Position numbers and translations under genes: made by a program. Shown one piece after another: positions 18,164-64,000 of a DNA stretch of 64,000 nt (position 1 is its first letter; every line of letters begins with the position of its first letter). Location of the stretch: assembly GCA_905178155.1 (NCBI GenBank), contig CAJINV010000012.1, positions 1 to 64,000 on the forward strand, given 5' to 3'. The notes below the pieces were generated by a model. The model was not told the DNA's origin. It searched no databases and worked only from the letters and a program-made list of their open reading frames with translations. This DNA comes from Amoebophrya sp. A120 (Eukaryota > Protista > Dinoflagellata).

Positions 18164-20828
18164 ATGGCGCTTCTTTCGTCAGCCTCCACCGCTCTCGCCC
18201 CCTTCTTGTCTTCCTCTGGAAATAAAATGGCCACCACATCATCTTCAACTGCGCCTCTCGACCACACCCTCTACCTGTATTCCACGGAAAAGCCTTGCAT
18301 CGTGTTGGATTTCGGCCGCCGCTTCACAAAGATCGGACTTTCTGGCGAGTCCCGTCCGCGTTTCGTGCTCGACACACCGGAACTGTACTATCGGCCTTGG
18401 TATGCTTTGCAAATATGTGTGGGTCTGAAAAGGTGGAACTTGTGATGCTGCTTTTGAACAATCCCAACAAAATCTGTATTGCCTGGGCAGCGAGAGAAGT
18501 CTAGTTTTCGGTGCGTGGAGCATTTCTCATTCGGCATAGACATCAAGAAGCATTCAGAAAATCTGTGATGCTAGGAAATACATCACAGACGAGACGTCAC
18601 GGGCCATGTAAAATGCGCATGACATACAAGTTGCAACCTTCCAGACCCGGCACGTTTGCATCTGATACTTGGGTCAGTGAACGGGTGATCGCGACTTCCG
18701 CCTTGGACGACGGCGGGGGTGGGGGTGGAGGGGACGATAAAGTAGAGGGAGACAAACAACGTCGATCGACTTCCTCTTCATCAAAAGCAAGAGCTAGTAG
18801 CTCGTCTAGCGCTTCGAACAAGTCCATGACGCCAGCCAAGCCTCTCCGTGCCTGGATCAAACTGCTCGAACCGCTTCTGGACAAGATTTTTTTTCAGCAA
18901 TTGAAGCTGAATCCCGTGAACAAGAGAATCATTCTCTGCGAGTCCCCCTTCCTTCCCCTTCCCTTCAAATTATGAAGTGCAAAAGCATCGTGCTAGTACT
19001 AATTGCATTACAAATTACCTTAGCGCGACAAATGGAATTTGTGATGCTGTCTTACCTTGGGATGGAGATTTGTAATGCATAATTGCAATTACTACAAGCG
19101 CGATACTTTTGCACAGGATACAGATCCGCGGTTTACTACTTGTTGTTCGAAAAGTTCAAAGCGGGCAGTGTGGTCAGCGTCTGCGACTTGCTGATGCCAC
19201 TGTATTTGACGGGGACGTCGCGGAAGGAGATAGAGTTTGATGGTGGGAAAATGCCAACATCTGCTGACAATTTCCTGTCAACGACGACGCCGAATACTTT
19301 TCTTACAGGCAGTGCCCCTGCTGCCTCAGGAACAATCACAACTTCCTCTTCGTCTTCGCCATTTTCAAGTAAACCAAAGCCCGATCCGCCAGAGCAGATT
19401 GCCACCGGGATTGTGATCGACGTGGGGCATGCGAGTACCCGGATTCTCCCCGTATTTGCCGGCGTGCCACTGTTGACCGCTCTGCAGGAGATCCGATACG
19501 GAGGAGAATCGGTGACGCAGCAGTGGGAAACGATGTTGGCGAAAGCAGCAACAGAACTTCCGTCTTTGATGACAAATAGCATGACAGGCAAAACTGAGCA
19601 GGCGGAGGACTACAAGGTGAAGCTCGGGTTTTTATGAATTGCAAAAGTATCGTGCTCATAGTAATTGCAGATATGCATGACAAATTGCCTCCCAGCGTAA
19701 GCGAGCATGACAATCTGTATTTTTCATCCTGCTGGTGCTGAGCAAACTTTTTCTTTTTGTAAATGCAATTTATACTGAGTGCGAAGATTCTTTTGCGCTG
19801 CATACTCTGTCCGCTACAACAATTTCCCTCCGCCCGACACTTCGAAGCCCGTGAAAGAGAATTCGATGGAGGAAGAGAAACTTTTCAGAGAACTGCTCGG
19901 GGAGGATGGCCGTAGGTTTCTGAACAGGACTGCAGGAACAGGAATGTCTTCGCTCACAGCTGCAGCTGCAGGAGCTGATGCTGATGGCACAACTACTAGT
20001 GCCCCAACAGGAACCACGAGGACGCCACCCTTCGTCATCCCTAGCAGGGCCTCCTCCTCTTCTTCCTCCACAAGGCGCCCCTATTGCCTAAAATGTTGCC
20101 GGCCGCAAGAGAAATGCTTCAGGAACTACGAGATCTTGACCACCTCCAGTGCCGGTAGAGCAAGAACTATGTCCTCTGACGGTGATAATGATGTCAAAGT
20201 TGAGAACTTCGTCGATTCTTCCGAGGACCAGGCCGAGGACTTCGAATCTGAGCTCCTCGTCACGGCCTTTTGGAAAGCGGTTGACCTTTGCCCACTAGAC
20301 GTGAAGACGAAGGTGGTGCAGAACGTCGTCCTGTGCGGCGGACAGAGCGGCGCGATTGGGTTTTTCCCGAGACTGGCGGAGGAGCTCCAGAAATCCGTCA
20401 CAGAAGCAGTTTTGGAGCGGCAGTTTGCGAAAAAAATGGCGAAAAAAGCGTCGTCGAAAACAGGGAGGAAAGACTCGGTGGACAATAGTGCGAAAATGGG
20501 TACTGGTGAACAAATCGCTTTATCCCCAACATCGAAACAACCGAGCAAGAAACTCCTCAACCGCGGGCTCTACGACATCAAATTTGCCCGGATCGACACC
20601 GTTCCGCCACTGACCCGGATTTGGACCGGCGCGAGCTTATTTGGCTCCGTGGTCGCGGTGACATCTCAGCCGAATTTGCCGTCGTCGGGGATAGGAGCGA
20701 GTGCTGCTGGTGGCGGGAGCAGGGGGAGTGGTGTTGATGGTGGGACAAATATTCCTGGGGAGTACACGATGGAACAGTACAAAAATGGAGAACCCATACC
20801 AGATTGGTGCGTGCAAAGTTGCGCATGA
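18164..20828 (+). CDS. ACTR10: Actin-related protein, Arp10/Arp11 (dynactin) type; 4 exons split by 3 introner elements
   Basis: EKPCIVLDFGRRFTKIGLSGESRPR, KLNPVNKRIILCES, GIVIDVGHASTRILPV, NVVLCGG, IWTGASLFG; frame restored by removing each element plus 5 nt; alternative start at 18227. Confidence 0.8.
18401..18667. mobile_element. Introner family B
   Basis: TATGCTTTGCAAATATGTGTGGGTCTG...CAGACCCGGCACGTTTGCATCTGATA; direct repeat CTTGG/CTTGG. Confidence 0.9.
18971..19120. mobile_element. Introner family A
   Basis: TATGAAGTGCAAAAGCATCG...CGATACTTTTGCACAGGATA; DR CAAAT/CAGAT. Confidence 0.9.
19633..19804. mobile_element. Introner family A (diverged)
   Basis: TATGAATTGCAAAAGTATCG...CTTTTGCGCTGCATA; DR decayed (GTTTT/CTCTG) but element+5 nt restores frame. 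Confidence 0.8.
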
Positions 20829-21192
20829 TGATGATGTAGTTGATGATTCATGCTGGTCGCGAAAGGAAGGTTGTGATGGAATACAAAAGTGAGAAAAACA
20901 AGAAACACGCCTGTTCCTGTGTCTGCGGGCATCCGCTGCAGCTTCGGCCGCAAAATTCAGTGACTTGAAAGTTCGAATGTCGAATGGTCATGATGCAATC
21001 TCGCCTGCGGAAGGATCCTCATCCGAACCTGATCTTTCCTTTTTTGAGCTACTTACAGCAGCATTTATGTAAGCACGCGCACAAGTGCTGTCTACTTCAT
21101 TTTCAGTACCACGCGCTCCCGTGACGAAAAAGATCCTTCAAAAGAGAAGCTCAGGATCTAGGGTTGTAGTAGTCAGAGTCACGAAGAACAAG

Positions 21193-24100
21193 ATGAGATC
21201 TTCGCCTCCCACGAGGATGTCGCCGCTCAACAAACTCTCTTGGTTGTTTGCTTTTGCCGGCCCACCTCCGGGGATCGTGACATCTTCTTCGGCAATGTCG
21301 ATTGAGAAGCAAGTGGATTTTTTACTGAAGAAAGCGCGGACGAAAAGCACGACGCCGACGGGGGGAGCAGCTTCTTCTTCTGGCGGTGAATGCGGGGACA
21401 AAACTACTAGCGGGTCATCTCTAGTGTACGCTGATGACGCTGAAGAGTTTGAGATGGAGGTGGAAGCATCTGCTTCATCCTCATCTTCGCTTCTGTCCGG
21501 CACGACAAAACACCAGACCGCAAGAACCCACGAGTACCTGCTCCGCGAATCCGTTCCGATCGGTGGCGATTTGGAATTCGTATCGAGTGCAAATATGTCT
21601 GGGTCTGGAAGGTGGCGGCAACTTGTCATGGTAAATCTGAAGCATGCATAAATCTGTGTTGCATGAGCGTCAAAAGCTGTACACTTTTGACCAACATGGA
21701 AGGGAGTTTCTCACGCAGGATAGGCATGGCAGAGACCTCGCAGATTCTGTCATGCTAAATCACACATTCCAGATCCAGACCTCATTCGCTATGGAAAATC
21801 TGCATGACAAGTTTACACTTTTCCAGACCCAGACAATTTAATTTTTGCACTTGATAACTCGGAGTGAAAAACATCTTCGCCCTCATGCAGAGCATCCAGA
21901 AAATCTACACGGAAACAACGGCCGGATGTGAGGACATGCGGTTGGAGAGGTTGCTGAAATTACGGCTGAAAGTGAAGGACCGAGGGTTTAATTTGCACTC
22001 GAAGGTATACGACGGGACTTAGGACTACAGAGTTAAGTTGTTGTGATGATGCATCATGATTGTGTTTGTGTTGCTAAATTTGGATGAAGAACAGTGCCCT
22101 GGTGTGTGTGAAGATCTCTGTCGATGCGAAACCTGCAATACAAAGTCCGGATTCAAAATGATTTATCTATCAGGTCCTCAACCTCCGCCAGCTAGTAAGG
22201 GAGCACTACACGTTCAACAGCAAAAGCAACCCCCTCACGACATCACTTTCCGAGGAGGCGGAGAGTGACAATACAGTCTTGGACTCCTTAATCTCAACCT
22301 TCACGCTGAAAGACTGGTCGGATTTGCTCTTCGTCTACCAGAGCCGGTTTTTCTTCAGCTACTTTCGGGTTTTGTTCTTCTCGGCATTGACTTCGAAATT
22401 CTACAAAGATTTCTTCCCCGTTTCCGACAGTAAGGGACTGCAGAAGTTGGGCTTTCTCTTCCAAAAAGCAGCGGTGGAGCTGCCGAAGTACTTGACAGGA
22501 CGACAGAGAGATACTAGTGCGGAACAACAAACACATGCAGAACAACAGCATGACAGAGAGGAGTCTTCTGCTCTTGATGAAATCCAGTATCCGAAACAGA
22601 TCTCCTACTTGATCCGCGGGTGTCGGAGTTATCAGGGGTCGAAAAACGCGTTCAAGATCCTCGCGTTGGCGCCGAACCAGGGCCGAGAAGTGCTAACGGA
22701 CGCGAAATTTCAGAATCAGCGGTGCTTGAAGTACAGAAATGACGTGCTGCGGCAATTGCTGGCCGCGAAAGTGGATTTCGTCGACTACACGGCGGAAAGT
22801 AGAACGACGGGAATCTACATCGTCGAGGGGGAACAAGACCATCAGCTGAGTAATATGCGAGACGCAGAGCAAAAGCAAACTCCTCCTCCTGCTCCTTCTG
22901 TACAACACAAACAGAACTTTAACCACCTGGCTTATGAAGAAATGGACCCAACCTCATTACAAACTGGCAACGTCATCACGCATCTGGACGGGATCAAACT
23001 CGAATCCGTTGCGCACTTTCACCAGATTTTACGGCAGAGTTTGGGTGAAGAAGTTGAAGTAGTAGCTTCTTCTACATCTTCAGCCTCGCAGGAACAAGAA
23101 CTACCGTCGAACCCCAACAGTGCTTCCAACGACATCCTCATTTCTGTCGACCGGGACGAGCGTGACAAAATCCATCCTCTTCCGAAAAAAATCAGCGAGG
23201 TAGCGGGGAGTAGATGTTACGAAATGGTGTTCAAAGGTGGTAATAACGTGAAGCTGATTCAAGTAGCAATGCTGAAACTGCTCGGAGATGAGAATTTGGA
23301 AAAGTTGATGCCAGCTTCTACTTCTCGACGACAAAATTTAGATGACGTTGGAGAGGACAACCATCCCGGCTCCTCCGTGGCCGCCACTACAACAACTTTC
23401 CAAAGCAGCGTTAAAAAAAAGCCAACCATCTACAGCCTTGTCGATCCGAAACCATCCAACCTGAAGGAGTCCGTGAACCAGTTGAAACAGAAATATCTCC
23501 CGACTGACTGGTCCGACTTGGATTTTTCCGTGAACATTGACAGGGTGAGACCGGAATGCGCTGTTTTCCGCTCTGATACAATCCACCGGATTGTGATGGA
23601 AAAAATTTCCGAGAAATTATTCCACGGGTTGATTGAGCTGTTGACAATGGACGAGGAGATGCTGGCTTTTGGGCAGGAGGTGAAGCACTGGATTCTTGAA
23701 CGGGAGAAAGATCTGGGGACTTTTTTGAATGAGATGGTTCTTGAGGAGAAGGAAAAAGTGGAGAAAATTCTGGATTTTGTGGTCAAAAAGGAAAAAATGC
23801 GGGAAAATTTCTTTTTCGAAAAAGACCCAGTGGTAGCGCGGGCGGTCGCACGACGAGCGGGAACAAGGTGGGAGGAAGATGCGAGTTCGAGTGAGGACAC
23901 AGCAGAGGAAGACGAGGACGACGAGGACTTGAGTCGCGTTGTGCTGCAGCCAAGCCCAACTGAGCAAGATGTGGACAACAACCTCAGCTCTGCTTCTTCC
24001 ACCTCATCCGCGGGGATTGGCAACGCAACTCTCTGGTCGCCGAACTCGAAGATCGAAGCAGCGGGTGACGATGTTGACGAACTTTCCTTGAACAGCACAT

Positions 24101-27100
24101 CAGCACGACAAAATCGAAAAGCTGATGTTGGGTCAAAGACCCGAGGGCGGTCCAGATCTGCGTCCCGGAAGAAGAAGAAAAAGGGCCTTGTCATCAAACC
24201 CTCCTCCAGTGCGAAACAAATAGCGAGCAGCAGAAGTAGAAGCAAAACTTCTTCTAAAACAAGAACTTATTCCTCCGGCGCATTACACACGCATCACCAA
24301 GGCGGTTCGGATTGGTTTGAGAATCATGCAAATCTACTTCGGGAGCTGTATCCTGAGTAAAAACGTACCCACACCAGAGTCAGGATAGGGATTTTGCAAC
24401 ACAAACCTAGGAGTTTTGTGAGTCACGCATGACAAGTTGCACTCTGCAGTGTAGTGCAGGTTAGCACGTCCAGCCGCATCACAGATTCATCTGCTCATCC
24501 TGTTCACAGCATCACAAATTCCAAAACACGATTGGAAATGGCTCTCATGGGAGTGCGCGTTACAAGTCTTCCTGTCTTGCAAATCTGCATTACAACTCTG
24601 GTGTGGGTACGCTTTTCCTCAGGATAGGCTGCTCCGAAAGTTCAAGATCACCGGTGTTGTGCCCTCAGAAAGCCGGCCTATGAACTGCAAAAGTATCGTA
24701 CTAGTAGTAATTGCAATACAAATTAGCTCAGCATGACAAATGGAGTTTGTCATGCTGTTTTGCCTTGGGATGAAGATTTGTAATGCATGATTGTGATTTT
24801 TACTACGAGTGCGATACTTTTGCACGGGATACGGCCCTTCATCGTGCAACTTCCGGAGGCGGTTTCGGTAGAGGGAAAGTTTTTTGATGAAAAAACGAGC
24901 GGTGTAGTAGGAGTTGCTGATATTGCACCAACGCCAACGTCCTCTACATCTGCGTCCTCTTGTGCTACGGGAGGACGTGCTGCTACCCCTGCTCCGCCAG
25001 TCCTCGGTAAAGGAAAAGGGGGCGGCGCAACACTGATCGAAAATAAAACTACGCTTGATCATCCTGCGACTTCATTTTGCAGTGGCGGAAAGGGATCCGG
25101 GAAGGGATCCTCCTCAGCTGTGTTGCGAAAAGGGAAGGGACCGAGTACTTGTGCTGCTGCGAGCAGCTACCAAAATTTCGTGATGGCGGCGCAACAGAAA
25201 GAGTGGCAAGAAATTCAGGAAGTAGTGCAATCGGTCACCCCGCCGGCCCCCGCGGCGTCTTCTTCATCGTCTTGTCAAAGTCGAATCCGAAGCAGCAGCT
25301 TGGGGAAGAAGGGAAAAGGTGGCTCTTTCCAGTACGACAACTCGAAAACAAACACCGGAAAAGGCAAACTCCTCGCAACACTTCTTGCTGCGTCAAACAC
25401 TTCTGGCGCTGGTCGGAATAAAGGGAAAAACTGCAACATGGTGGATGGCGCAGCTGGCTCATCGGCCGATCCAATTTTGAATGCGCACGGGCGAAGTTAC
25501 AGTGGGGGTGTTTGCAGCGGCGGTCCACCAGGAGCCCCGCAGCGTTTTCTAGACCACAATCATACAACGGGAAATGACGAGGACTCAGAGTTGTGCAGTG
25601 ACGAGGAGCAGGAGGAAATTCCAAACCTTCTCCAACCCACCACTCGTCTTCTTTCCTCAACACCGGATCATCTTCAGGATTCCCACAGCGACCCCGATAA
25701 TTTGGTTTTGGATCTGTCATGCGAGGACAAAGCTGCGCACCAAGTAGACCACGAACCGGAACAGCCGAAGATGAAGGTGATCACCTCAACGCGGTTTCAG
25801 CCTTCCTTCCTTCGTGCCCGGATGATCCTATGGGAGCGTCAGGATCGAAATCGGTAAAGTTGAAAAACAAAAATTTGTGATGCATAAAACCGATACCAGT
25901 TGGAAGCCCAATTTCCAAGCGGCGCATGACAAATTTTGGCACCATCTGAATCCAGTTTGTCACGCTGTTTGGGGAAAGAAGGCGTCTTTTGTCATGCTAC
26001 TGTAGCAGCTCTATCGCAGACCCCAAACAGGCTAACAGTCGGCCTCACTTGCCATCCGTGCAAGAGAGGCGCCCCATGCCCTGCAATTTATGCATGAGAA
26101 GTCGTTTCAACTTTGTCGATTTCGATCGAGCCACCTCCATAGATCCGGGGGATTGGGTACGCGGACTCGCGGGTGTTGGACGAGAAGGGGTTGCTTATCA
26201 AATGCAAATATGTCTGGGTCTGGACTAAACTTGTGATGCTAAAATGTGGATGATGGAAACAGTTCCGAATGCAATCCAGCATGACAACTTTTCAGAACGC
26301 TTTCTCATAGGCAATCCGCATGTTGAGAAGCCGGGTTTTTGCATGTACAAAAGAGGCTGCGACTTTTGTTGGTTATGCAATAGTACAGATTTTCTAGGTA
26401 TGGAAAGCTAGCATTACAAGTTCCAACCATCCAGACCCCGACACATTTGCAATCCATATTGCTGTGGTTCGACTTACTCCGTGGCATGATCGACGTGAGG
26501 ATCAAAGCACCCCTTTTGGAAAAAATCGATCCGTTTTACGAGCGGTTTTTGGCCAAGGGGATTGAGATCTACGACTTTAGCCACCACACCAGCGTGGATT
26601 TCGACGCGCAGACCTTTGAGCCAGCGTACCGATTGGCGGAAATGACCCTGAGGTTGCCGAAGTTTGACGTCGTTGACACAGACACTTCTTCATGTGGAAA
26701 AGTAAAAGCGCCTTTGTCTCAGTCTCGACGACCAGAAGATGACGACGACTCCTCTGCGGAGGACGACCAACGAGGACAGTGTGACGATGCGCTGCAGACG
26801 AGTAGATCACCTTCGTCATCTCGGTCAGTGTCTTTAACCAACTCGTCCCGCTCCTATTCACCGTCCCAGTCCGCCTCACCGGCCCTGTTGATGCGACGCG
26901 CAGAACAACACTCGCGAGTTGGGGAAAGAAGCAGCATCAAAGGCTCGACGACTCTATCGAGGACTAGAAGAACTTCTAGGCGCAAGCTTAGGCGGCGTGG
27001 CACCAGCAGAGGATCTTCATCTTCTAAGCGTGGACATCATCATCAAGCGGACTTGTTCGAAGGCGACACGCGAGTGGATGTTGAGCAGCTGCCCCTTGTC

Positions 27101-28774
27101 ATAGCGACGTCACCAGGACAAGGGTCGAGGTCTTTTGCGGTGGTCCAGCAGTGTGATGAACATGATTGTGATTCTCCTTCGCATCATCAAACCGAAACCG
27201 TCACCGGCCTCGTCAACTCCCTGGAAGCGCAGATCGAAGATTCCATCCTCTGTGCCTTCGGCTTATGACAGTGCACAACTCTCCCTCTCCCTTATTTGCA
27301 TGGCATGAGCAGCAATACAAACGCCAGCACTCCAACTCCTAGAGCCTGCGCATGACAAGTTCACTGGGCGATAGAAGTAGTGCTGTTTGGCCTCTCGAAA
27401 TTTGTCATGCAAACAGTGCCACAGGGCAGCATTTGAATTTGCGGCTTTGCATGACAAATGAGGAGGACGGAATAGTTTACGAGGGGACGCCCAGCCCTTA
27501 GCCTTCCAACATGACAAATGAGGGGGAGGGGGAGTTGTGCACTCTCATACGGCTCCCCGCACCTCCAGGTCCGGGAAGACGAGAGGGTCTGGAAGACGCC
27601 GAAAATCGAGAAACGGTTTCAACGGTGGGCTTTGCTAGTTGGTGCGGCGGTGTTTACCACGTCTGCTGTTGGTAATGGTAAGACTGGTGGAACTGGAACG
27701 AGTGGGGCTGGAGGTGGAGCTACAACTACAGCAATAACGCACTACGCGGGCTCACCATCAAGTACTACATCAACTCCACTTGAAATTACTTGGGAGAAAG
27801 CGAAGCAGCTGTTTGGCTATTTGCAGTTCGGTTTGCTCTTCTTCTTCGATGACCTCCCCGCGTTTCTGACCAGAGTGGACCAAAACCACAGAGGCCGTCG
27901 CGGCGGAACTGGAACTGGAGATCGTGCGACAGGAGCATCAAATAAGCAATCCATTGTTTTCCAGGCGAAGGACTACATTGAGAACGTGGTAAAAGTGAAG
28001 GCGGCAAGAAGGGTGAATGGGAATAAAAAGGAATTGGACGAGATTCTGCGGAAGTTGGACCCGCACGCCCTCACTTCCCACGCGAACGTCTTCACGTTCT
28101 TGCAACCAGTGGCGGCGTATAGGGAGTTTCATAACTTTTTTGGAATCTTCGCAGAAGTCGTATCTTTTGCATCAACCACTCTTCAGTACAACTTTTCTAT
28201 GTAGTTTACAATTGAAGATCATGTTCACGACACGATCTATCGCGCGTAGACGCAGTCAACATCCCACATTTAGAACTAGAACTACCAAAATTGGCAAACA
28301 CAATCAACATCAACAGGTCCACCCTGAAGGCGCACAGATCGGGGCGGCTCTACCGTCAGGCCTTGAACCGCTACCACCACGTCATTGACCCGGCGGTGGG
28401 GGTCTTGAAAAACTTATGGCGTTCTCAAACGTTACATTTTCAACTGTTACATGGATTTGTCATGCAAAAGTGCCTTCAGCCGGCAGATGATCGAGCTGCT
28501 TCGCATGACAAATGTCGGAAGGGATAAACAGCATCTAAATCTGCGCCAATCTTGTAATGCAAAAGGCGCAATCTTCCTCCTTTCACTTTTGCCAGTCTTG
28601 CATGACAAATTCATGTAACAGTTGAGAATGTAACAGTTGAGAACGCCATAAAACTGGGCGGAAGTTTGCGACTACATGGCCGAAAAGGGGATTGCGAAGT
28701 CGGCTTTTCAAAGAAAACAGCTGTACGATGTGGAGTTTGATTTGGTGAAAGTGATCGGAGGACGAGCAGGCTGA
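21193..28774 (+). CDS. Large hypothetical protein (~1800 aa) joining ORFs 21085, 22279, 24787, 26447, 27518, 28291
   Basis: Continuous frame after removing 7 introners and GT-AG intron 22005-22173; one further intron near 28160-28316 not resolved; apparent stops at 24360, 25857 and 27268 lie inside elements. Confidence 0.65.
21581..21856. mobile_element. Introner family B
   Basis: TATCGAGTGCAAATATGTCTGGGTCTGG...TTTGCACTTGATA; DR ATTCG/ACTCG. Confidence 0.9.
24349..24626. mobile_element. Introner family H
   Basis: TATCCTGAGTAAAAACGTACCCACACCAGAG...CTCTGGTGTGGGTACGCTTTTCCTCAGGATA; DR AGCTG/GGCTG. Confidence 0.9.
24679..24831. mobile_element. Introner family A
   Basis: TATGAACTGCAAAAGTATCG...CGATACTTTTGCACGGGATA; DR CGGCC/CGGCC. 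Confidence 0.92.
25829..26141. mobile_element. Introner family C
   Basis: TATGGGAGCGTCAGGATCGAAATCG...CGATTTCGATCGAGCCACCTCCATA; DR GATCC/GATCC. Confidence 0.9.
26196..26458. mobile_element. Introner family B
   Basis: TATCAAATGCAAATATGTCTGGGTCTGGA...ACATTTGCAATCCATA; DR TTGCT/TTGCT. Confidence 0.92.
27264..27549. mobile_element. Introner family G
   Basis: TATGACAGTGCACAACTC...GAGTTGTGCACTCTCATA; DR CGGCT/CGGCT. Confidence 0.92.
28415..28650. mobile_element. Introner family D
   Basis: TATGGCGTTCTCAAAC...GTTGAGAACGCCATA; DR AAACT/AAACT. Confidence 0.92.
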
Positions 28775-50288: not shown

Positions 50289-52586
50289 ATGGCCAAGCTC
50301 AGCCTGCAGAGTTACATCTCGCAAGGGCACGCGGATGGAGGAGGAGATGACTTTCCGCTGCAAATTGTGCAGCAATTCTTCTTCGCCACGCATCAACGCA
50401 AAAGCAAGACGTTGCCGGCTCTGCGCAGTAGTAGAGAAACGCAGTCTAGTATTAGTACAACATCTTTCGCGGCACTGACACAGCCGCCCGAACGACCAGC
50501 AATCGCGAGGACCACGACTGGACACGAGATGCAGAAGCAAGCAAAAAACGAAACTTCATCCAAGCTCGACCTACTCTCCCGCCCCTCCTCCTTCGCCGCA
50601 GCCACGGACAAACCGCTGAACTGCGACCTGTCCCACCACGGACTGGGGAACCTCCCTTCCCCCGAGGATTTCTGTATCCAGTGCAGATATGTCTGGGTCT
50701 GGAAGAGTGGTCCGAGTTTGTCATGCTAGTCCTGGTTGGCACCAATAAAATCTGTGTTGCGTGAGCAGCAGAAGCACGCGAGGATGGCATTTCTAATGCA
50801 GGAGGTTTAGGCATTTTTGCAGAGCCTTGTCCAAAAGTCAAAGTGTGATGCTATAACTCGCATTCCAGGCCTTCTGGGCCATGCGAAACCAGCATGACAG
50901 ACAAAACATTCTTCGAGACGCAGACACATTTGCATTTGATATCCTGCACTGTGAAACGAAACGGCGCGGACGCGGACGATGCCGATTTGAAGACGAAGGA
51001 GGAGCTATGCAATGCAAAGGCATCGTCCTAGTATAAATTGCATTACAAATCAGCCCAGCATTACAAATTAGCCTGCCCAGCATTACAAATTAGCCTGCCC
51101 AGCATTACAAATTAGCCTGCCCAGCATTACAAATTAGCCCAGCATTACAAAGTAAATCTGTAATGCTGATTTGCCTTGAGAAAGAGATTTGTATATGCAT
51201 GAATGCAATTACTACGAGCGCGATACTTTTGCACAGGATAGGAGCTCCTGGATGTCGAGTTGAAAAAAGACACCAGCATTGCGCACTATTTTGAGAAATT
51301 TATCCTCGCAAACTTCGACCCTTACACGAAGATTCCGGAAAAATCGTATGCATTGCAAAAGTATCGTACTCGTAGTATTGCAATACAAATTAGCTCAGCA
51401 TGACAAATGGAATTTCTCATGCTGATTTAGCTTGAAAAAGAAATCTGTCTTGCATGACTGCGACTAGTACGAGTGCGATACTTTTGCACAGGATAAATCG
51501 AAGAAAGTGAAAATCCTCGAGCACTGTCTTTCTGACACGATATCCCACGAAAAAACTGTTTCATTGTGATGATTTTGCAAGATCTGCATCACAAGTTTGT
51601 TACGCATGACACCCAAAATTTGTCATGCGCACTTCCCAAGGGAAAACACGCTGGAAAACCCAATGCCTTGCAGGTGTAGCAAGACAAATAGTTCTGTGTT
51701 CCATTTTCTGCATCACAGGTTCACAGTGAAACAGTTTCTTCTTGCGATACACGAAGAAGCTACTCCAATGGCTGACCAACAGCATCGAGGACTGCAAGAA
51801 GAAAGCCCACGACCGGGAGCCAACCAGCAGCCAGGAGCCGGCGGAGTTGGTGCCACTGGCGGCTATGAACTGCAAAAGTATCGTACTCGTATAAATGCAT
51901 TGCAAATTTCCTCAGCATGAGAAATAAATTTGTAATGCAGATTTGCCTTGGAAACAAGATTTGTAATGCAAGACTTGCATTAGCATGATTTGTACGAGTA
52001 CGATGCTTTTTGCACAGGATAGCGGCGTATCAAATACAAATGCATTATGTATGCCTGGGTCTGAAGAGAACGAAACTTTAACTTGTGATGCTCGGTTGTA
52101 GATGAATGCAGAACTTCTCAATGCATGCACGCATGTCACGATCAAGAAGTTCTTCCAGCGGCGCTCTCTGCTCTCAAGAACATCCGTTACTTTTGGCGGA
52201 CATGCAACACAGATTTTCTAGAGTTGGAAAACATGCTGTATTTTCCGGACCCAGACATATTTGCATTTGATACAGCGAACGCGTTAAAAGTGGAGGAAAA
52301 GGGGGTCACGGCGCGGCAGGCTCTGGAGAGAGATTTGAAGCAATTGAAGGCGGAATTGAGAAAAGCACCGGATGAAAACAATCCGCAATACGCGCCCTGT
52401 GACGCGAAGAAGGGACCACCACCAAGGCCATGGTGCATTTTCTTGGACGGACCGAAGGAGCGAGAAGGTGAAGATATCCATACTGAAGATGAAGTTTGTA
52501 CTGCTGCGAACCCAGAGACCAGATTTAGAGGACAGGTGGAAACAAATGGACCCTTCATGGGATCTTTTGGGGCGAATATTTTTTGA
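50289..52586 (+). CDS. Hypothetical protein interrupted by 6 introners
   Basis: MAKLSLQSY...EDFC|TVKRN...EEL|LDVEL...EKS|KKVK...DT|KKLL...LAA|NALKVEEK...GANIF; stop-free after removal. Confidence 0.75.
50675..50941. mobile_element. Introner family B
   Basis: TATCCAGTGCAGATATGTCTG...CAGACACATTTGCATTTGATA; DR TTCTG/TCCTG. Confidence 0.9.
51006..51240. mobile_element. Introner family A with internal 22-bp tandem expansion
   Basis: TATGCAATGCAAAGG...CTTTTGCACAGGATA; DR GGAGC/GGAGC; CCCAGCATTACAAATTAGCCTG repeats. Confidence 0.92.
51347..51495. mobile_element. Introner family A
   Basis: TATGCATTGCAAAAGTATCG...CGATACTTTTGCACAGGATA; DR AATCG/AATCG. Confidence 0.92.
51541..51749. mobile_element. 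Introner family I
   Basis: TATCCCACGAAAAAACTGTTTCATTGTGA...TCACAGTGAAACAGTTTCTTCTTGCGATA; DR CACGA/CACGA. Confidence 0.9.
51864..52021. mobile_element. Introner family A
   Basis: TATGAACTGCAAAAG...TTTTTGCACAGGATA; DR GCGGC/GCGGC. Confidence 0.92.
52028..52272. mobile_element. Introner family B
   Basis: TATCAAATACAAATG...CATATTTGCATTTGATA; DR CGGCG/CAGCG. Confidence 0.88.
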
Positions 52587-52589
52587 AAT

Positions 52590-55140: not shown

Positions 55141-55346
55141 ATCGTGGGTGAAAAAATTCAGACGAGTTCCATTTTCATCCTTTCTGTGATGTCGAATGTC
55201 GTTCGGGTTTTATCTTATGTGTTCTGTGTGTCCGTCGATAGAACAGCTTGGGTCGTGGCGAAAAGTCACATGATGGAGCCATTAGAGGAGCACCTCCATC
55301 ACCACCATCTAAGAAATCATCAGAAATAGAAGACCCTTGTATCAAT

Positions 55347-57316
55347 CTATCGTCGTCTGTTGTGTCGCCGGGAATCGTCCTCTTGCCGTTTGTTCTTGTC
55401 CCGTCGTCCGCCTCGATCGTCTCTCGAGTTGTGTCCCCTGTTATTTCCCCGGCTCCGGCTTCTGCTTCGACCACGCCCGCCACCGCGATGTTCTCTCTCC
55501 ACATCTCGGCGAGATTTTTTATCATTCCCCCGGCTGTCGTTCCTGCCGCCATGATCCCGTCCAGACCGATGCTTCGTTCCACGGCCCGCACCACTACTTC
55601 GCCGACTATCTACACTGCTGTCGCTTCGGTTATTCACCACATCAGAAGATTCACTGCGTTCCCTGCGGCGGTCGTTCGTAGTTTTTTTCTCATTTGTGTT
55701 CTTGTTCAGCTGGTGCTGGCCGCGCTTCTTTGCAGTTCTACCACGTTGATTATCTACGGATGAGTCCGAGTCGTCGTAGTTCTCCGCCGAGCTGTCTTCA
55801 TCCGAGGAATTCTCCGAATCACTATTACAGCGTTTAATTTTAATACTTTTTCCAGTATTATCTTTTTTCATCTTCCCCCGCTGTTCCTCCTCCCAAATTT
55901 CCCCGTGTAAACTGTACAACTTGAACTGTTCGGATTGTAAAAAAGACGCCTGTTTCGCCGAGAAATACTTCACGTTGCGCAGAAGTTTCAGCAAGATCGC
56001 CTTCTCCTGCGGCTCGTTGCAGTTTTGCAGGAAAGAGCGGTGGACGACGATGTGGTAGAAGGCATCCTGCAGGTTCAACCGGTCTAAACTCGCGAGTTTC
56101 AAACACTTGTCAATCCACTTGATCTATGCAGTGCACAAGTATCGCACTAGTACGTAGAAATCGCATGACAAATCCCCCCAGCATGAGAAATGGAATTTGT
56201 AATGCGGATTTTGTTAGGTTAAGAAGGAGATTTGTAATGCATGACTGCGATAATTACTACGACTGCGATACTTTTGCACAGGATATGATCCGCGCGCCCG
56301 GCGTCTTCGCGTACACTTCCTCCGCGTCCATGGTCACCTGCGGAAGGTTGTTCTATCCTTTGCAAAAGCGTCCCCACCCCAGAGTTCTCATGCAAATACG
56401 CATGCCAAAAAAGTTTCTCATGCGGAGCGCCATGAGAGGCACTTTCTAGCTGTGTTGTGGGATTTGTGATGCTATAATCAGCATGATGTGCTAGATCTGT
56501 GATGCTTCTGAACTACCTAAACAGAATCACACTACGAGGAAAAATCTGTCATGCGAAACAACCAAAGCTGGCTGATTTGTCTAGCAAATTTCCCATCTTG
56601 ACTCTGGTGTGGGGACGTTTTTACTCGGGATATGTTCAGCTCTTTATTCATCTTCTTGTCCTGATCCGGATTTTTGTTACTCCGGGTAACGGCCTCGGTG
56701 CCGATCGGGATATCTTTCCTATCGAATGCAATAATATGTCTGGAGGTGGTTCTCTGGAACAAGTAGGGTGCAAAGCTAGCATGCAAGGTGGTTTCTTGTT
56801 GTCGTATAATAATGGCCCATACAGATTATTTTTGGCATACAGGGTCTAACATGACAGATTCTGCATTGTGCAGATCTGTATCATGCTTCTCGTCCGGCAT
56901 GAGAAACTGCCAGCACTGGACAACTTTTGCTAATCATGCAACACAGATTTATTTTGCATCAGATCCAGACGTCGACCCAGACGACCTTTTTGCATTTGAT
57001 ACTTCCGGTTCCGAAACCATTGGGTCCGGGCCGCCTGCGCCAGGGCGGCGTTGTAGTGGATGGAAGATATGGCGTTCTCAACTGTTACATTCTCAAGCGT
57101 TGCATGATCTGTCATGCAGAATTGCCTTGACTATCGACGCCATCAAGCCGCTTCGCATGACAAATTCTCAGACGGCCAAACAGGCTGAGAATCTGCGCCA
57201 AATCTGTCATGCAAGACGCGCAAGGTCCTTCCTTTCACTTTTGCCACTGTTGCATCGCAAATGCATGCAACAGCTGAGAATGTAATAATTGAGAACACCA
57301 TAGAAGAGGAAGACAT
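55347..57316 (-). CDS. Hypothetical protein with Arg/Ser/Asp-rich (RS-like) C-terminus, 5 exons
   Basis: MSSSS|IHYNAALAQ...RNRK|DIPIG...KELN|NLPQ...ARI|KWIDKCLKLASLD...RGRSRSRSRG; 4 introners removed. Confidence 0.75.
56125..56285. mobile_element. Introner family A
   Basis: TATGCAGTGCACAAGTATCGC...GCGATACTTTTGCACAGGATA; DR TGATC/TGATC. Confidence 0.92.
56354..56632. mobile_element. Introner family H
   Basis: TATCCTTTGCAAAAGCGTCCCCACCCCAGAG...CTCTGGTGTGGGGACGTTTTTACTCGGGATA; DR TGTTC/TGTTC. Confidence 0.92.
56720..57001. mobile_element. Introner family B
   Basis: TATCGAATGCAA...TTGCATTTGATA; DR TTTCC/CTTCC. Confidence 0.88.
57068..57302. mobile_element. Introner family D
   Basis: TATGGCGTTCTCAACTGTTACAT...ATGTAATAATTGAGAACACCATA; DR GAAGA/GAAGA. 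Confidence 0.92.
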
Positions 57317-59097: not shown

Positions 59098-61854
59098 TTA
59101 GGTTGATGATGTGAAGGTTTTCATCATGAGTTCCTCTCGAAATTGAAAATATTCCTGCTCAACAAAACTTTGCGCTCGAACTAGAACATCCTCCATAAGG
59201 TCGGGGGTGAGAAACAAATCACTGCTCTTCATTTTCTGCCGCCCGCTCGCGCTTGCAGCTTGTTCAACATCGAGCGTCTTTAATAGCCAATGCACCGCCC
59301 GCATCGGATTGTCGACAAAATCTTCATTTAATATCACGTCACCTGCGTGTTGTTGCGTGGGATCATGAAGATGTTGCTGATCCCCACCAGCATCTCCGAA
59401 GTCCACAATGTCACCGTTCAAAATCAGCTGGAAATACGGGCCACAGGCGGGTGGGTAGGTGGCGAAAAAGTTGTACGACTCATCCTCTTCTTGCACCAGC
59501 TGTTCCGGCGACGCGACACCTCCTCCAGGCGTGTAGTTTATTCGAGTAGATGTCTTTCGCGGAGAAGTCGTTCTTTCCTGTTCGTCTGTCAAATCATATC
59601 CGTGCAGTGCTGCGGGTTTTTTAACCGCCGTCGAGAGTTGGTTTGTATGGTCAGCAGGCTGCTCGTCAACAACGTCTCTACTTGAACTTTGTGCTGCGTT
59701 TAGCTGTAGAAAATTTGCACCCCCCGGGGTTATGTCGAGGGAGATGAACTTGAGAAAATTTTTTGGTCGCGGAGGTTCTTTTGCTCCTGGTCCTGCTTCT
59801 GTCGTTTTGTTATTGTTGTCGTAGTGATTGTTCTGTGTCGTGGTCGTGGAGCGGTTGTTAAAAGTGTTCTGGTGCGACGAGGCTTCTAGTGCTATCACTT
59901 CGCTGACAATTCGGGCCAGGTTCTCCATAAGAAACCCCGCCAGCGAAGAGCGGAAGTTTGTCTTCGCATCGGAGGTCTTCAATAAGACCAAGCTGGCTTG
60001 ACGCCCGTGGACGGAGTTTTCGTATGCGCTGCAAATGAGTAGTCTGGTGGTGTTTTGCAACAAACATGGGGCGCTAGATTGTGAAGGGTGCGCCTGTGTG
60101 CGCTGCAGTGCTACGCAGCCAAGCATGACAAGCTTTTCAACACCTATGCTTTTCGTTGTCCGCATGGCAAGAAACATCAGAAGGCTCCTCCTTTCCTCCC
60201 TTATGCATCTTCACAGTGTTAAGCTCAAGGGCGGCCATGATGCGAGACAAGCATGACAAACTTGCTGCAATAAATTTCCACACCCGGTGGACTACAAAGT
60301 TGCATTTGATATTTCGATCACGTCGACCATCTCAGGCACCGTGATCTCGCGGACGTAGCCAGTGTCGACCTTCGCGTTAGCAGTTGGAATATGCCTTGCA
60401 GAAGTATCGCACATCGAGAACTCATTCATTTTCTTAGGGTGACCAATCCGCATTACAACACAAATTTCGTATCTCACGCGCAGGAAATTTGTAATTCTAT
60501 TTCTATTTCTAGAGCGATACTTTTGCACAGGATATGCCACTGTTCCAGGTGCCGTCGACGCGGATGAGAAAGCTTTCTTCTCCGTGCCGGTACTTGAAAG
60601 TGCATCTGTAGTTGTTGTACTAGTACCCATTTGATTCATCATCTCCGTGGTCGCGCCGGCGTTGCTTCTCTCCCCTTGCGCCAGAAGTTTTTGTTTCTTC
60701 TTTTCCTCCACAAAGGCAAAGACCGCAAAAGGCGTGGCTGCCAACGTGAAAAACCCGAGCCAGGGCAGAACTGCGAATAGCTTCTGCCACTTCCTTTGTT
60801 CCATCAAATGCAAACATGTCTGGGTCTGGACAAGTGGAAGTGCAAGGCCTGTTATGCATATTTATTCCCATCAAGTAGACCCATGATGTCTGTGATGCTT
60901 GCCGTAGCATCACAGCTTGTGCTGGCGCGACGGCCTTCTGAGTCTGATGCTCATACCGCATGAGAAATACCCTCTCCGCGCAACGAAGACTGGAGCTCTT
61001 TATTTGCTGCTCAACATGCAATACAGATTTTATGTAGAGTCCAAAGATACTAGCATCACAAGTTGCAGCACCTTTCCAGACCGAGACATACTTGCAGCTG
61101 ATATCTTCCGGCAGCAGCCGACTTTCGTCGATGAGGAAAGTTGTTTTATCGGGGTTCGTATGAAGTGCAAATATGTCTGGGTCTGGAAGATTGTCATGCA
61201 CGTTTTGCATGAGCCATGATGTCTGTGACGCATGCCCTAGCATCACAGTTTTTTCTAGGGCTTCTTGATGCCTATTCCGCATGACAAATGCCCTCGCCTT
61301 GTAGCAACAGTTACATTTCCTTTGCTGCTCATGCAATACAGAATCTTCTTGGAATCCAAATGCAGCATCGCAAATCCCATTCTTTCCAGACCCAGACACA
61401 TTTGCAAGGCATAGTTCGCACTGTACCGGGTTTTCAGAAAGGCCTCGATAGAGCAGGTGCCTTTATCGCCGAAGGGGGTCACGGCGGTAGAGGAGTGGTG
61501 ATGCAGAAGCTCTTCTTGCCGTTTTTCAAGGTCATTCGCGGCCAATACAATTTTTCTCCCCACATCAACTTGGTCCAGGGGAAGCACCCGCTTCTCGCTG
61601 TTCTGGAAGGTGTTGTTGTTGGTAGAAGTTCTGCTGATGTCAAAATCGTCGAGATCTTCTCGTGTAGCGGAGGTGCGGATAGTAGTTTCACCTGGTGGCG
61701 GAGCCGACTCTGCTACAGGTGCGGCGATGGTGGAACGCTGGCGGAGTTGCAGCCGCTTGCTGTAGTGCCACTCGGTGAGCAACACTCTCGGTATCAAAGC
61801 CGTCCTGCAACCACAGCAGCTCGTCCTCCCGCGGAGGAGAGACACTGAGAGCAT
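59098..61854 (-). CDS. Hypothetical single-pass membrane protein, possibly mitochondrion-targeted; 5 exons
   Basis: Arg-rich N-terminus MLSVSLLRGRTS...; TM LFAVLPWLGFFTLAATPFAVFAFV; frame restored across 4 introners. Confidence 0.7.
60023..60311. mobile_element. Introner family B-like (diverged)
   Basis: TATGCGCTGCAAATG...GTTGCATTTGATA; DR TTTCG/TTTCG. Confidence 0.85.
60390..60534. mobile_element. Introner family A (diverged DR)
   Basis: TATGCCTTGCAGAAGTATCGC...GCGATACTTTTGCACAGGATA; DR TGGAA/TGCCA. Confidence 0.85.
60802..61103. mobile_element. Introner family B (CAT left end)
   Basis: CATCAAATGCAAACATGTCTGGGTCTGGA...AGACATACTTGCAGCTGATA; DR TGTTC/TCTTC. Confidence 0.88.
61159..61413. 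mobile_element. Introner family B
   Basis: TATGAAGTGCAAATATGTCTGGGTCTGGAA...TTCCAGACCCAGACACATTTGCAAGGCATA; DR GTTCG/GTTCG. Confidence 0.93.
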
Positions 61855-62443
61855 TCTTCTTTTCTTTTGCAGCTCGAAAAAAAAAAAGTTTTTGCGAAGT
61901 TTTCATTACTACTTGTAGTAGTACTGAAAAGACATAGAATTCTGCTGTGAAAATAAAGACAAAATGCTTTGTACGACATCAGAAGAGAAACACACTGTGC
62001 TTTTGCTTTTGGCACAACTGCGAAACCGAATGCAAAAGAAGTAGAAACAAGCAACAAGAAACAAGATCTACTATGCTTGAATGTTCACTACACACACAAA
62101 GATACTTAAAAAGTACGACCAGACCTCCTTCGTGACATCACGTTCAACACACCGGAGAATTTTCTAGATCAAAATCTTTAAAAGTGAAAAAAAAGAGGAA
62201 CATCACCCTCCCGGGTGCTCAAGTACTGAGCACGTTCAGCAGCGTGTGGTCCTCGACACTTCAACTTCTCCTTGCGTGAGGCGTCAAAGCTGAACACTTG
62301 CGAGTGGTTATGGTTTAGTACTGTATAATGAGGTGCTCTGGACGAGGCATGAACTGAGCCCAACAAGAACAAGTGTTTCAGCTTTCGGCCTCGCATAGTA
62401 CTTTCTCCTGCATATCAATTTTACATTTACACACAGCCACAGT

Positions 62444-64000
62444 TCACATCTTCGACTTGTGAAACAAAATTTTCCGTTCTTTCTCCCCAAGCGATGAAGT
62501 GTAGTTTACACTATCCTTACTGTCCCTCAGTTTCTGCATGTCCCGTGCCTCCTTCTCCATCACCTTCAGAGCCTGCACTACCGTATTGAGAGGAAAAATC
62601 CCCCCTCCCCATATTGAAAGCGCTTTCGTCTGAAAATTTGTGATGCAGATTTGAGGTCACAAATCCTGTCTGTCTTGCAAGAAGGCAAAGCCAGAGAGTC
62701 CGCCGCATTATGCCGGCGGTTTGTGATGCTGTTGGGCTTACAGAGCCGACATCTGTCAATGTCATGCTAATCCCCTCATCAAAACCTCTCGACCCAGGCT
62801 TGGCATATGCCTGCAGTCCTCTCCAGCAAGACAGACCTGATTTGTGTACGCAAATCCAGCATCAGAAACTTCGTTTCGATATGGGGAGGGGGGATTTTTC
62901 CCTTTGATATACCGCCGGTCGCTGTTTAATTTTCTCGTACCACGCGTCTGCGTAAATCAGGCCGCAATCTTTCAAAGACCTATTCTGCTTTTCAAACCGC
63001 TTCCAGGGCTTGACCCAGGGCCACGCCGCCCTATTATCTATAGGAAAAATATTAAACTCCTGTCGATCTTCACTTGTGTAAGTAGCTGCTGTTTTTATTT
63101 GGTGGAGTGATAGCATATGCTGTTGAGTTCTTGTACATCATCTCTGCATTACAGAGCACATGCACAAAGCCTCTAGTGTACAAGTTAGTAGCACGGAACG
63201 ACGATGAAAACGTACACACATGAAGCCGAGAGGTGGACTTCGTGGTGGTCGTCTGGCATGACAAGTTGTGATAAACTTGTTTTAGTACATACTGGTCCTG
63301 CAACATCTTCACAGACTTACACTAATACAGAGTTCTTTTTTTCTTGCATACATATCCGCGATGGTATACTTGTCGCCGGCGAGAAAACCGGACGTCCTTA
63401 TGCACTGCAAAAGTATAATCGTACTCGTAGTGGTGGCGATAAATATGCGAAGACAAATCTCCTTCTCTAGGTAAATCCGCATGACAGGTTCCATTTGCTA
63501 TACTGAGGAAATTTGTCATGCGATGTATACGTAGGTGTAGCGCGATGCTTTTGCAGGGCATATTCCTCTCGACCCGCTTATCCAGAACGTGAAGCAATAT
63601 CGCAAGAAAAAAGTGTTACAGTTACGCATTGCGTTGCAACACCGGCAACACAGATAACCTTTCTCATGCAGGAAGTGCTTGCGAGCCTCGTTTCCTACGT
63701 ATTTTACCTTATGATCTTCGCATCACAAGTTATGCCTGCCACACAGGGAAAATTTGTGTTGCAGAAACTCCAACAAATGTGTAACTGTAGCACTTTTTTC
63801 TCGTGATAAGCAAGCGGGAATACTCAGTTGTACGCGCACGCGCAAGGCCGTATTCTGTAATATTACTGCAAGCCGCAGCAGCAGCAGCAGCACGAAGGCG
63901 GGATGGATCTGTTTCTTTTGCCTCGCATGTTGGCTGTTCATCCCCGCCATCAGTTGTCCTGGGCGGTGGAGCCGCGGTCAGCTATGAAGTGCAAAAGTAT
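62444..64000 (-). CDS. Glutathione S-transferase C-terminal part, YfcG/YghU/Ure2-like; 5' part beyond the window
   Basis: EYSRLL|HVLDKRVER|TSGFLAGDKYTIADM|AAWPWV...WYEKIKQRPAV|VQAL...LGEKERKILF; 3 complete introners plus GT-AG intron 63351-63031. Confidence 0.85.
62584..62909. mobile_element. Introner family E
   Basis: TATTGAGAGGAAAAATCCCCCCTCCCCATAT...ATATGGGGAGGGGGGATTTTTCCCTTTGATA; DR TACCG/TACCG. Confidence 0.93.
63399..63562. mobile_element. Introner family A
   Basis: TATGCACTGCAAAAG...CTTTTGCAGGGCATA; DR GTCCT/TTCCT. Confidence 0.9.
63598..63808. mobile_element. Introner family I
   Basis: TATCGCAAGAAAAAAGTGTTACAGTTAC...GTAACTGTAGCACTTTTTTCTCGTGATA; DR AGCAA/AGCAA. Confidence 0.92.
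63983..64000. mobile_element. Introner family A, truncated by window end
   Basis: TATGAAGTGCAAAAGTAT, the family A terminus. Confidence 0.75.

What the first reader, a model, noticed from the sequence alone, without database searches (positions are those of the whole stretch)
18401..63808. Shared internal motif GCAT(G/T/C)ACAAA across families with different TIRs
Seen: families A-I differ in TIR sequence but carry several copies of GCATGACAAA/GCATTACAAA/GCATCACAAA and the complement TTTGTCATGC, often as inward-facing pairs. The motif appears scarce in exons and in the first 18 kb. Inference: a binding site for one trans-acting protein (transposase or excision factor), or a pairing unit extending the hairpin.
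Basis: partly seen in the sequence, partly recalled or inferred. Interest (0 to 1): 0.7.

Follow-up and report, generated by a model that had tools for sequence, protein, structure and literature searches.

The report
Shared binding-site lattice in jumping introns
Nine otherwise unrelated families of small jumping introns in this genome window, likely from the marine parasite Amoebophrya, carry the same short DNA site repeated about three helical turns apart, which likely marks where one still-unknown protein grips them to make them jump, and so offers bait to catch that protein.

Summary
46 elements (109-326 bp, TAT...ATA ends, 5-bp target duplication) fall into nine TIR families; 64 of 67 copies of GCAT[G/C/T]ACAAA lie inside them, in all nine families (shuffles: 0.3). 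They match the published Amoebophrya A120-type introners; contigs of probable RNA runs skip element + 5 nt at 13 of them. New here: the motif is the strong half of a lopsided palindrome, TTTGTNATGC-N6/7-GC(A). Measured from palindrome centres, sites lie 30-34 bp apart in 9 of 9 families, and the outermost lies 43-45 or 54-56 bp from the end in most. Families share almost nothing else. Hairpin extension is rejected (no pairing constraint). A splicing signal is unlikely: no strand bias, removal with all-sense or all-antisense sites, a motif-free element removed just as precisely, and decay in older copies. Best reading: a binding lattice on double-stranded DNA for one protein of the transposition machinery, probably a shared transposase, possibly a host helper. 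No such protein was found; binding is inferred. Against a clean picture: the 8-mer is also about 6-fold above chance in exons. The lattice was not found in the papers read.

The parts
12740..12999 (.). Old family E element; TSD 3 mismatches; no site above threshold
   Evidence: removing it + 5 nt keeps a 514-codon frame, not shown in RNA
13209..13432 (.). Old family D-like element; TSD 2 mismatches; 2 weak sites
18401..18667 (.). Family B element in the actin-related gene; 5 site centres, outermost 52 and 55 bp from ends
18971..19120 (.). Family A element; gaps 50, 31
19633..19804 (.). Older family A element, reversed; TSD 3 mismatches; 2 of 4 sites left
   Evidence: RNA? contig pieces resume at 19,808
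21581..21856 (.). Family B element
24349..24626 (.). Family D element; 6 sites, all sense to the transcript; gaps 31, 49, 33, 48, 30; 44 bp from each end
   Evidence: removal by arithmetic on X5 record 11
24679..24831 (.). Family A element; gaps 18, 32, 31
   Evidence: removal by arithmetic
25829..26141 (.). Family C element; gaps 33, 49, 32, 87
   Evidence: joint skips 318 = 313 + 5
26196..26458 (.). Family B element
   Evidence: joint skips 268 = 263 + 5
27264..27549 (.). Family E element; 45 bp from each end; gaps 38, 68, 31, 60
   Evidence: joint skips 291
28415..28650 (.). Family F element; 55 bp from each end; gaps 30, 65, 32
   Evidence: joint skips 241
31835..32099 (.). Family B element; gaps 31, 54, 40, 32
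   Evidence: joint skips 270
33453..34490 (.). Control: GC-rich TIR element with TAG ends, 7-bp TSD (one mismatch), no motif site; removed without GT-AG
   Evidence: joint skips 1045 = 1038 + 7; no site, best score 4.4 bits
34865..35169 (.). Family C element; 54 bp from each end
   Evidence: joint skips 310
35652..35939 (.). Family B element; TSD 1 mismatch, left copy's first base kept in RNA
   Evidence: joint skips 293
35989..36116 (+). GT-AG intron holding two sites 33 bp apart (36,056 and 36,089); likely relic of an element
   Evidence: joint GT..AG; sites
36180..36487 (.). Family C element, reversed; gaps 32, 55, 32, 49, 33
   Evidence: joint skips 313
37993..38299 (.). Family D element; 5 sites, all antisense to the transcript
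   Evidence: joint skips 312 = 307 + 5
38402..38524 (.). Family A element that has lost most of one TIR; lies inside the GT-AG intron 38,399-38,668
38920..39077 (.). Family A element, reversed, in the lipase-class-3 gene
39459..39620 (.). Family A element, reversed; gaps 34, 32, 18
44568..44868 (.). Family C element
45504..45660 (.). Family A element; gaps 18, 32, 31
   Evidence: removal by arithmetic on X3 record 9
45783..45895 (.). Family G element; 2 sites, both antisense, 32 bp apart
   Evidence: removal by arithmetic
47041..47196 (.). Family A element
47306..47571 (.). Family B element; two sites with both halves of the palindrome scoring
47639..47900 (.). Family B element; gaps 31, 54, 39, 33
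47996..48162 (.). Family A element
48277..48587 (.). Family H element; 56 bp from each end; gaps 32, 52, 84, 32
49391..49499 (.). Family G element; 2 sites 32 bp apart
50675..50941 (.). Family B element
51006..51240 (.). Family A element with a tandem expansion of one site (18- and 22-bp units)
51347..51495 (.). Family A element; gaps 18, 32, 31
51541..51749 (.). Family I element; 42 and 44 bp from ends; gaps 50, 43, 31
51864..52021 (.). Family A element; gaps 18, 31, 31
52028..52272 (.). Diverged family B element, 2 sites left
56125..56285 (.). Family A element in a minus-strand gene
56354..56632 (.). Family D element; gaps 30.5, 49, 33, 49
56720..57001 (.). Diverged family B element, no strong site left
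57068..57302 (.). Family F element; gaps 30, 65, 32
60023..60311 (.). Diverged family B element
60390..60534 (.). Older family A element; TSD 2 mismatches; no strong site left
60802..61103 (.). Family B element; one end CAT instead of TAT
61159..61413 (.). Family B element; gaps 33, 39, 54, 32
62584..62909 (.). Family H element; gaps 32, 51, 89, 33
63399..63562 (.). Family A element
63598..63808 (.). Family I element; 44 and 43 bp from ends; gaps 32, 43, 50
63983..64000 (.). Start of a further family A element, cut by the window end (not counted among the 46)

Best explanation
The motif is the strong half of a lopsided palindromic site repeated 30-34 bp apart in all nine families of these non-autonomous DNA-transposon introns, and it likely serves as the docking lattice on double-stranded DNA for one shared protein of the jumping machinery, most likely a single transposase that moves them all. 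Shown: the site, its spacing, the shared TAT ends and 5-bp target duplication, and removal of element + 5 nt in contigs of probable RNA runs. Inferred: a dimer binds each TTTGTNATGC-N7-GCA site; two dimers three helical turns apart sit on one face of the helix; the lattice holds the two TAT ends in phase for cutting; a DDE-type enzyme joins them to a target with a 5-bp stagger. Once inserted the sites are no longer needed and decay, while the terminal hairpin lets the host cut the element out of the RNA by a motif-independent, non-GT-AG route.
For: Sites: 64 of 67 10-mers inside elements, all nine families. Families unalike once sites are masked: z at most 2.1 in 33 of 36 family pairs (highest 4.3), against 12.9-118 in 8 within-family pairs (one representative per family). 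Dyad: GC[A/C] follows the strong half after 6-7 bases in 54 of 162 sites, in all nine families, against 12 at control offsets. Lattice: with the centre set 4 bp beyond the G, as that dyad predicts, 54 of 124 adjacent gaps are 30-34 bp and 25 are 48-54 bp (42 elements; 4 dropped); 9 of 9 families share a 31-34 gap, reached in 1 of 5000 random layouts at the best window; a strict regular expression gives the same peak at offsets 3-5 (32 pairs in nine families at offset 4, 14 in five at offsets up to 1). Outermost centre 54-56 bp from the end at most intact ends of B, C, F, H and 42-45 in D, E, I and one end of G, one helical turn apart. All 8 elements in locus L042, not used to build the matrix, show a 30-33 gap. 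No strand bias: 86 sense, 94 antisense. Strong sites fall as the TSD decays (rho -0.44, p 0.002; family-normalised -0.47). Precedent for spaced internal transposase sites whose spacing follows the DNA helix: PMC10201428, PMC9308760 (passages).
Against: No transposase or binding protein was found: none of 24 window frames scanned matches a transposase family, and PMC7789003 reports no transposase in A120. Each family keeps its own TIR interior (positions 9-30), which a single transposase does not need and which fits family-specific enzymes plus a shared helper. Family A (30-31 and about 36-42 bp) and the second end of G (33-37) do not fit the 44/55 phasing, and gaps of 18, 39 and 43 bp also recur. 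The dyad's second half is weak and absent in two thirds of sites. The decay trend is not significant within B alone (p 0.078; A p 0.018). The 8-mer is above chance in exons, 6 of 7 on the sense strand. One window and one further contig only; L042 holds the same families A, B, E, so it is not an independent set of layouts.
Confidence: 0.55

Rival explanations
1. The lattice binds a shared host DNA-bending or chromatin protein that helps several family-specific transposases, each reading its own TIR, as IHF does for many CAST transposons.
For: TIR positions 9-30 are family-specific and conserved (0.82-0.84 in A and B). The 8-mer is above chance in exons and outside elements, as host sites might be. 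An IHF site is conserved across 20 CAST systems with different transposases (PMC10201428, passages).
Against: Needs many transposases where none was found in A120, against 1954 element families (PMC7789003). All nine families share the same TAT[C/G] end and 5-bp stagger, and the one element with other ends and a 7-bp TSD has no site.
Confidence: 0.23
2. The motif is an RNA signal for the unknown machinery that removes these non-GT-AG introns.
For: All 46 elements lie in gene spans and frames are restored by their removal; exonic copies are 6 of 7 sense; three copies lie in GT-AG introns; U1 snRNA was not found in Amoebophrya (PMC7789003).
Against: 86 sense vs 94 antisense sites. D 24,349 (6 sense, 0 antisense) and D 37,993 (0 sense, 5 antisense) are both removed as element + 5 nt, and a motif-free TIR element is removed just as precisely. 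Sites decay in older copies that still keep the frame. The RNA status of runs X3-X6 is a guess and they are one sample.
Confidence: 0.12
3. The sites are selectively neutral leftovers of one ancestral element built from a 31-32 bp repeat, spread by slippage and recombination.
For: Slippage has multiplied a site in the element at 51,006. Weak residual likeness in three family pairs (z 3.0-4.3).
Against: Site columns are conserved while spacers diverge within families; spacers between 31-32 bp pairs are 34% identical between families (10 spacers); spacing holds even where the strong half has switched sides.
Confidence: 0.07
4. Opposite copies of the motif pair with each other and extend the terminal hairpin.
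For: Outer sites are mirror-placed in B, C, F, H, and predicted folds pair opposite copies in many elements.
Against: Only 44 of 182 sites are mirror-placed; the variable base matches in 8 of 22 such pairs (38% by chance); D, E and G sites run mostly or wholly one way; predicted motif-motif pairing is near zero in removed elements such as 24,349 (0.05) and 35,652 (0.07).
Confidence: 0.03

Closest known systems
Amoebophrya A120 introner elements (PMC7789003; families tabulated in PMC12130899 dataset file 8)
   Same: TAT start, seven freer bases, then a run of A in several families; short direct repeats; non-GT-AG removal; lengths of 149, 209, 252-261, 278, 305 bp listed as 'TIR DNA, unknown' match families here.
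   Different: The text read describes only terminal and direct repeats and says transposase mobilisation is ruled out; it does not mention an internal shared site or its spacing. Identity of the organism is inferred from these features, not from a sequence match.
Tn7 / CAST transposon ends (PMC9308760, PMC10201428)
   Same: Several weakly conserved internal sites at fixed spacing; spacing follows the DNA helix; only terminal bases 1-3 are critical while 4-8 are free, as positions 4-8 vary here. A 5-bp target duplication is recalled for Tn7, not taken from a call.
   Different: TAT instead of TG ends; dyad-type site with either half strong; first site 31-56 bp inside, behind a family-specific TIR, rather than 8 bp from the end; eukaryotic, non-autonomous, spliced out of RNA; no TnsB-like gene found.
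Maize Ac/Ds subterminal AAACGG repeats (PMC3260210)
   Same: Non-autonomous elements with unrelated interiors share short subterminal sites bound by one transposase.
   Different: Ds elements share the 11-bp TIR and 8-bp TSD with Ac; here TIRs differ beyond four bases, TSD is 5 bp, and sites keep a strict 31-33 bp spacing.
IS3EU / GingerRoot DNA transposons (PMC10045372)
   Same: TA..TA termini.
   Different: These usually make 6-bp TSDs; here 5 bp (31 of 46 perfect at 5). Ginger2 is given as 4-5 bp there; its TG-type ends are recalled. No transposase to compare.

Membership tests
Amoebophrya A120-type introner | Inverted repeat starting TAT, with an A run at about positions 11-13 | tested here: met
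   TAT at 91 of 92 ends (one CAT); A run at 11-13 in consensus of A, B, D, G, H, I, not in C, E, F
Amoebophrya A120-type introner | Direct repeat of 3-5 nt at the exon-intron boundaries | tested here: met
   5-bp duplication, perfect in 31 of 46, one mismatch in 11
Amoebophrya A120-type introner | Removed from transcripts without GT-AG ends | tested here: met
   9 joints as table rows and 4 by arithmetic skip element + 5 nt (runs are RNA by guess, one sample; families H and I not seen; 6 joint rows not shown); only 2 of 44 elements offer GT/GC-AG in any register
Amoebophrya A120-type introner | Repeated genome-wide | tested here: met
   Summed contig depth in run X1 up to 303,838 over element-rich bins against 42-56 over element-free bins (not a copy number); same families in L042
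Amoebophrya A120-type introner | Host is Amoebophrya | not testable with these tools
   No genome held; organism names are coded; inferred from features
Tn7/Mu-type end with internal transposase sites | Array of internal sites at fixed, helix-phased spacing | tested here: met
Tn7/Mu-type end with internal transposase sites | Terminal TG dinucleotide, first site about 8 bp from the end | tested here: not met
   Ends are TA; first centre 30-59 bp inside; only A and B show a weak half-site at position 4
Tn7/Mu-type end with internal transposase sites | Cognate TnsB/MuA-like transposase binds the sites | not testable with these tools
   No autonomous element or transposase found
IS3EU/GingerRoot | TA..TA termini | tested here: met
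IS3EU/GingerRoot | 6-bp TSD | tested here: not met
   5 bp; a sixth matching base on one side or the other in a minority only
IS3EU/GingerRoot | IS3-like DDE transposase in an autonomous partner | not testable with these tools
   none in window
hAT (Ac/Ds) subterminal repeats | Shared TIR and 8-bp TSD among elements moved by one transposase | tested here: not met
   TIRs differ beyond base 4; TSD 5 bp

The most novel reading that the evidence does not exclude
One unrecognised transposase, missed by homology searches, moves hundreds of TIR-unrelated introner families by reading only TAT ends and a helix-phased lattice of dyad sites. TIR interiors are then free to be any self-complementary sequence, serving only as the RNA hairpin that lets the host splice the element out, so new families arise de novo whenever sites fall at the right spacing between two TAT ends: a transposon defined by geometry rather than by descent, with mobility and splicing signals fully separated.
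Probability: 0.3. Interest if true: 0.85.

Novelty: new variant of a known kind. Interest (0 to 1): 0.62.

Why it matters
How the tens of thousands of Amoebophrya introners move is an open question: the genome paper found no transposase in A120 and no link among its 1954 families. A site and spacing common to all nine families here points to one shared machine and gives a defined bait (two sites 32 bp apart, with re-spaced controls) to find it. It also separates two functions that were lumped together: internal DNA sites likely for mobility, and the terminal hairpin likely for a splicing route that works for unrelated TIR elements too.

Tried and rejected
No whole genome held; the record behind L042 is not searchable, so no genome-wide count and no hunt for an autonomous element. 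Raw-read RNA runs X9 and X10 did not cover the locus (2 and 6 of 30 bins). The DNA joint table was swamped by repeat contigs, so excision at DNA level was not properly tested. Viral contigs: family B TIR 0 hits; site-pair pattern 41 hits, read by eye as chance or coding repeats, mostly 2-4 sites per 3 kb. Prokaryote genomes: triple-site pattern 55 hits, tandem repeats, coding sequence and REP-like repeats; no TIR/TSD search was run on them. Some REP-like repeats there begin with the same 8 bases; taken as coincidence (REP identity is recalled). Metagenome contigs: 1 hit, L042, non-autonomous elements only. Pfam on 24 frames: actin and lipase only above or near cut-off, no transposase. Rfam on 44,300-64,000: 0 matches. 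A terminal half-site at position 4 scores near the 99th background percentile only in A and B, not general. Left/right concordance at TIR positions 4-8 is no higher within than between elements in A and B. Earlier findings: nothing returned. Literature searches returned no papers; the 10-mer itself is in 75 papers, and the 20 listed are on unrelated subjects (listing only).

Full report
What is there. The window is gene-dense eukaryotic DNA of about 50% GC. A search for TAT...ATA stretches flanked by a 5-base duplication, completed by eye, gave 46 elements of 109-326 bp in nine families by TIR. The duplication is perfect in 31 of 46. Removing each element with one copy of the duplication restores long frames, 660-4851 nt, across 42 of the 45 tested and 360-408 nt across the last three (the element at 38,402 was treated as part of a GT-AG intron). 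Contigs of four probable RNA runs of one sample skip exactly element + 5 nt at nine elements shown as joints and four more by arithmetic on contig pieces (24,349 and 24,679; 45,504 and 45,783); six joint rows were not displayed. Only 2 of 44 elements offer GT/GC-AG in any register. In the DNA run, contigs of single-copy depth run unchanged from exon into element, and summed depth over elements is thousands of times higher. These features match the introners of Amoebophrya A120 in PMC7789003 (abstract, four sections, passages and part 2 of 5 of the supplement read) and the family lengths in PMC12130899 (passages; dataset file 8, parts 15-16 of 33). The organism is inferred, not shown.

The observation. 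64 of 67 exact 10-mers lie in the 10.5 kb of elements, in all nine families; shuffles give 0.32. The core is GCAT[G/C/T]A[C/G]A, followed by weaker AAT. Within families A and B the site columns are about as conserved as the TIR and well above the rest. With sites masked, one representative per family aligns no better than shuffles in 33 of 36 pairs, whereas within-family pairs score z 13-118. The families therefore share four terminal bases, the 5-bp duplication and this site, and almost nothing else.

Geometry. Same-direction copies recur 31-34 bp apart in 7 of 9 families (19 of 3000 random layouts reach 7 at their best window). Beyond the ATGC end of the site, GC[A/C] follows after 6 or 7 bases in 54 of 162 sites, in all nine families, against 12 at control offsets: the site is a lopsided palindrome. 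Taking its centre 4 bp beyond the G brings head-to-head (23-24) and tail-to-tail (38-41) distances onto the same value: 54 of 124 adjacent gaps are 30-34 bp, 25 are 48-54 bp, and all nine families share the short gap (1 of 5000 random layouts; four elements dropped as truncated, tandem-expanded or old). The offset was suggested by the data, but the dyad estimate and the offset scan agree, and a strict pattern repeats the result. The outermost centre is 54-56 bp from the end at most intact ends of B, C, F and H, and 42-45 bp in D, E, I and one end of G, symmetric even where the strong halves all run one way; A (30-31 and about 36-42) and the other end of G (33-37) do not fit. 31.5 and 52.5 bp are three and five turns of B-DNA (established knowledge). 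Eight elements of families A, B, E in locus L042 all show a 30-33 gap, and hold 22 of its 29 8-mers in 1,814 of 10,987 bp.

DNA or RNA. Sites are 86 sense and 94 antisense to the transcript. The two D elements in plus-strand genes carry 6 sense/0 antisense and 0/5 sites, and both are removed precisely. A GC-rich element at 33,453-34,490 with TAG ends, a 7-bp duplication and no site is removed as element + 7 nt without GT-AG; this is a single case. Strong sites per 100 bp fall from 1.46 to 1.01 to 0.26 as duplication mismatches rise from 0 to 1 to 2 or more (30, 11, 4 elements), also after family normalisation, though not significantly in B alone. The old element at 12,740 has no site left yet its removal still keeps the frame (not shown in RNA). 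Pairing is not the constraint. Together these place the site's function before or during insertion, on double-stranded DNA.

Results against. No binding protein was found. TIR interiors are family-specific and conserved, which suits a helper-plus-many-transposases model, or selection for a spliceable hairpin. The 8-mer is 5-6 times above chance outside elements, including 7 copies in coding sequence, 6 of them sense; relics, host sites or an RNA role could each explain this, and two copies 33 bp apart in the GT-AG intron 35,989-36,116 look like a relic.

Mechanism. Most likely (0.55) one transposase, probably of the DDE type given TA ends and a fixed 5-bp stagger (inference), binds the dyad sites as dimers on one face of the helix and positions both ends. 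A shared host helper with family-specific enzymes is the main rival (0.23), an RNA splicing signal 0.12, neutral ancestry 0.07, hairpin extension 0.03.

Comparison and novelty. It works like Tn7/CAST ends (PMC9308760, PMC10201428; passages) and Ac/Ds subterminal repeats (PMC3260210; passages) but is a member of neither; it shares TA..TA ends but not the 6-bp duplication with IS3EU/GingerRoot (PMC10045372; passages). The elements are known. The shared lattice was not found in the texts read or in searches, nor as a string in the supplement of PMC7789003 or in 12 of 14 supplementary files of PMC12130899; the review PMC11282704 (passages) mentions only TIRs and TSDs. Figures, two supplementary files and subscription papers were not seen and could show it. 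Verdict: real feature, new variant of a known kind, interest 0.62.

Noticed in passing
window 18,001-64,000: All 46 elements lie within gene spans; none in about 14 kb of intergenic DNA between 18 and 64 kb. Strong preference for coding sequence, in both orientations, unexplained.
   Followed up: partly
window 19,628-19,809; 24,344-24,631; 35,647-35,944; 37,988-38,304: Where the two TSD copies differ, RNA? contigs keep the left copy's bases 1 and 3 and (at 19,633, assuming a 177-nt skip) the right copy's base 5: compatible with a fixed cut after TSD base 3 or 4.
   Followed up: partly
window 33,453-34,490: 1,038-bp GC-rich TIR element (TAG ends, 7-bp TSD) spliced out precisely without GT-AG; other copies appear as loose ends in RNA? 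contigs. Suggests the non-canonical route accepts unrelated TIR elements.
   Followed up: partly
window 38,399-38,668: An element that lost most of one TIR sits at the 5' splice site of a GT-AG intron; its TSD supplies the GT.
   Followed up: yes
window 4,628-8,680: Tandem array of a 132-bp unit with internal inverted repeats; each unit has one weak variant of the site (13.9 bits), probably chance.
   Followed up: no
window 1,355-1,608: Near-perfect 109-bp inverted repeat with a 36-nt loop, no motif.
   Followed up: no
window 53,445-54,281: Second motif-free element with a 20-bp TIR and GC-rich interior inside an AT-rich stretch (about 52,600-55,200); almost no RNA? cover at 53,500-54,800.
   Followed up: no
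window 16,700-17,600; 29,100-31,100; 40,400-44,250: GC-rich intergenic stretches, probably decayed repeats; 29,472-30,805 has no RNA? cover.
   Followed up: no
window 18,143-20,825 and 37,433-40,186: Host genes: an actin-related protein split by three elements; a class 3 lipase domain gene split by several.
   Followed up: partly
L042:7168-7712: Six 8-mers outside any intact element, two opposite pairs with centres 43-44 bp apart; probably a decayed element.
   Followed up: no
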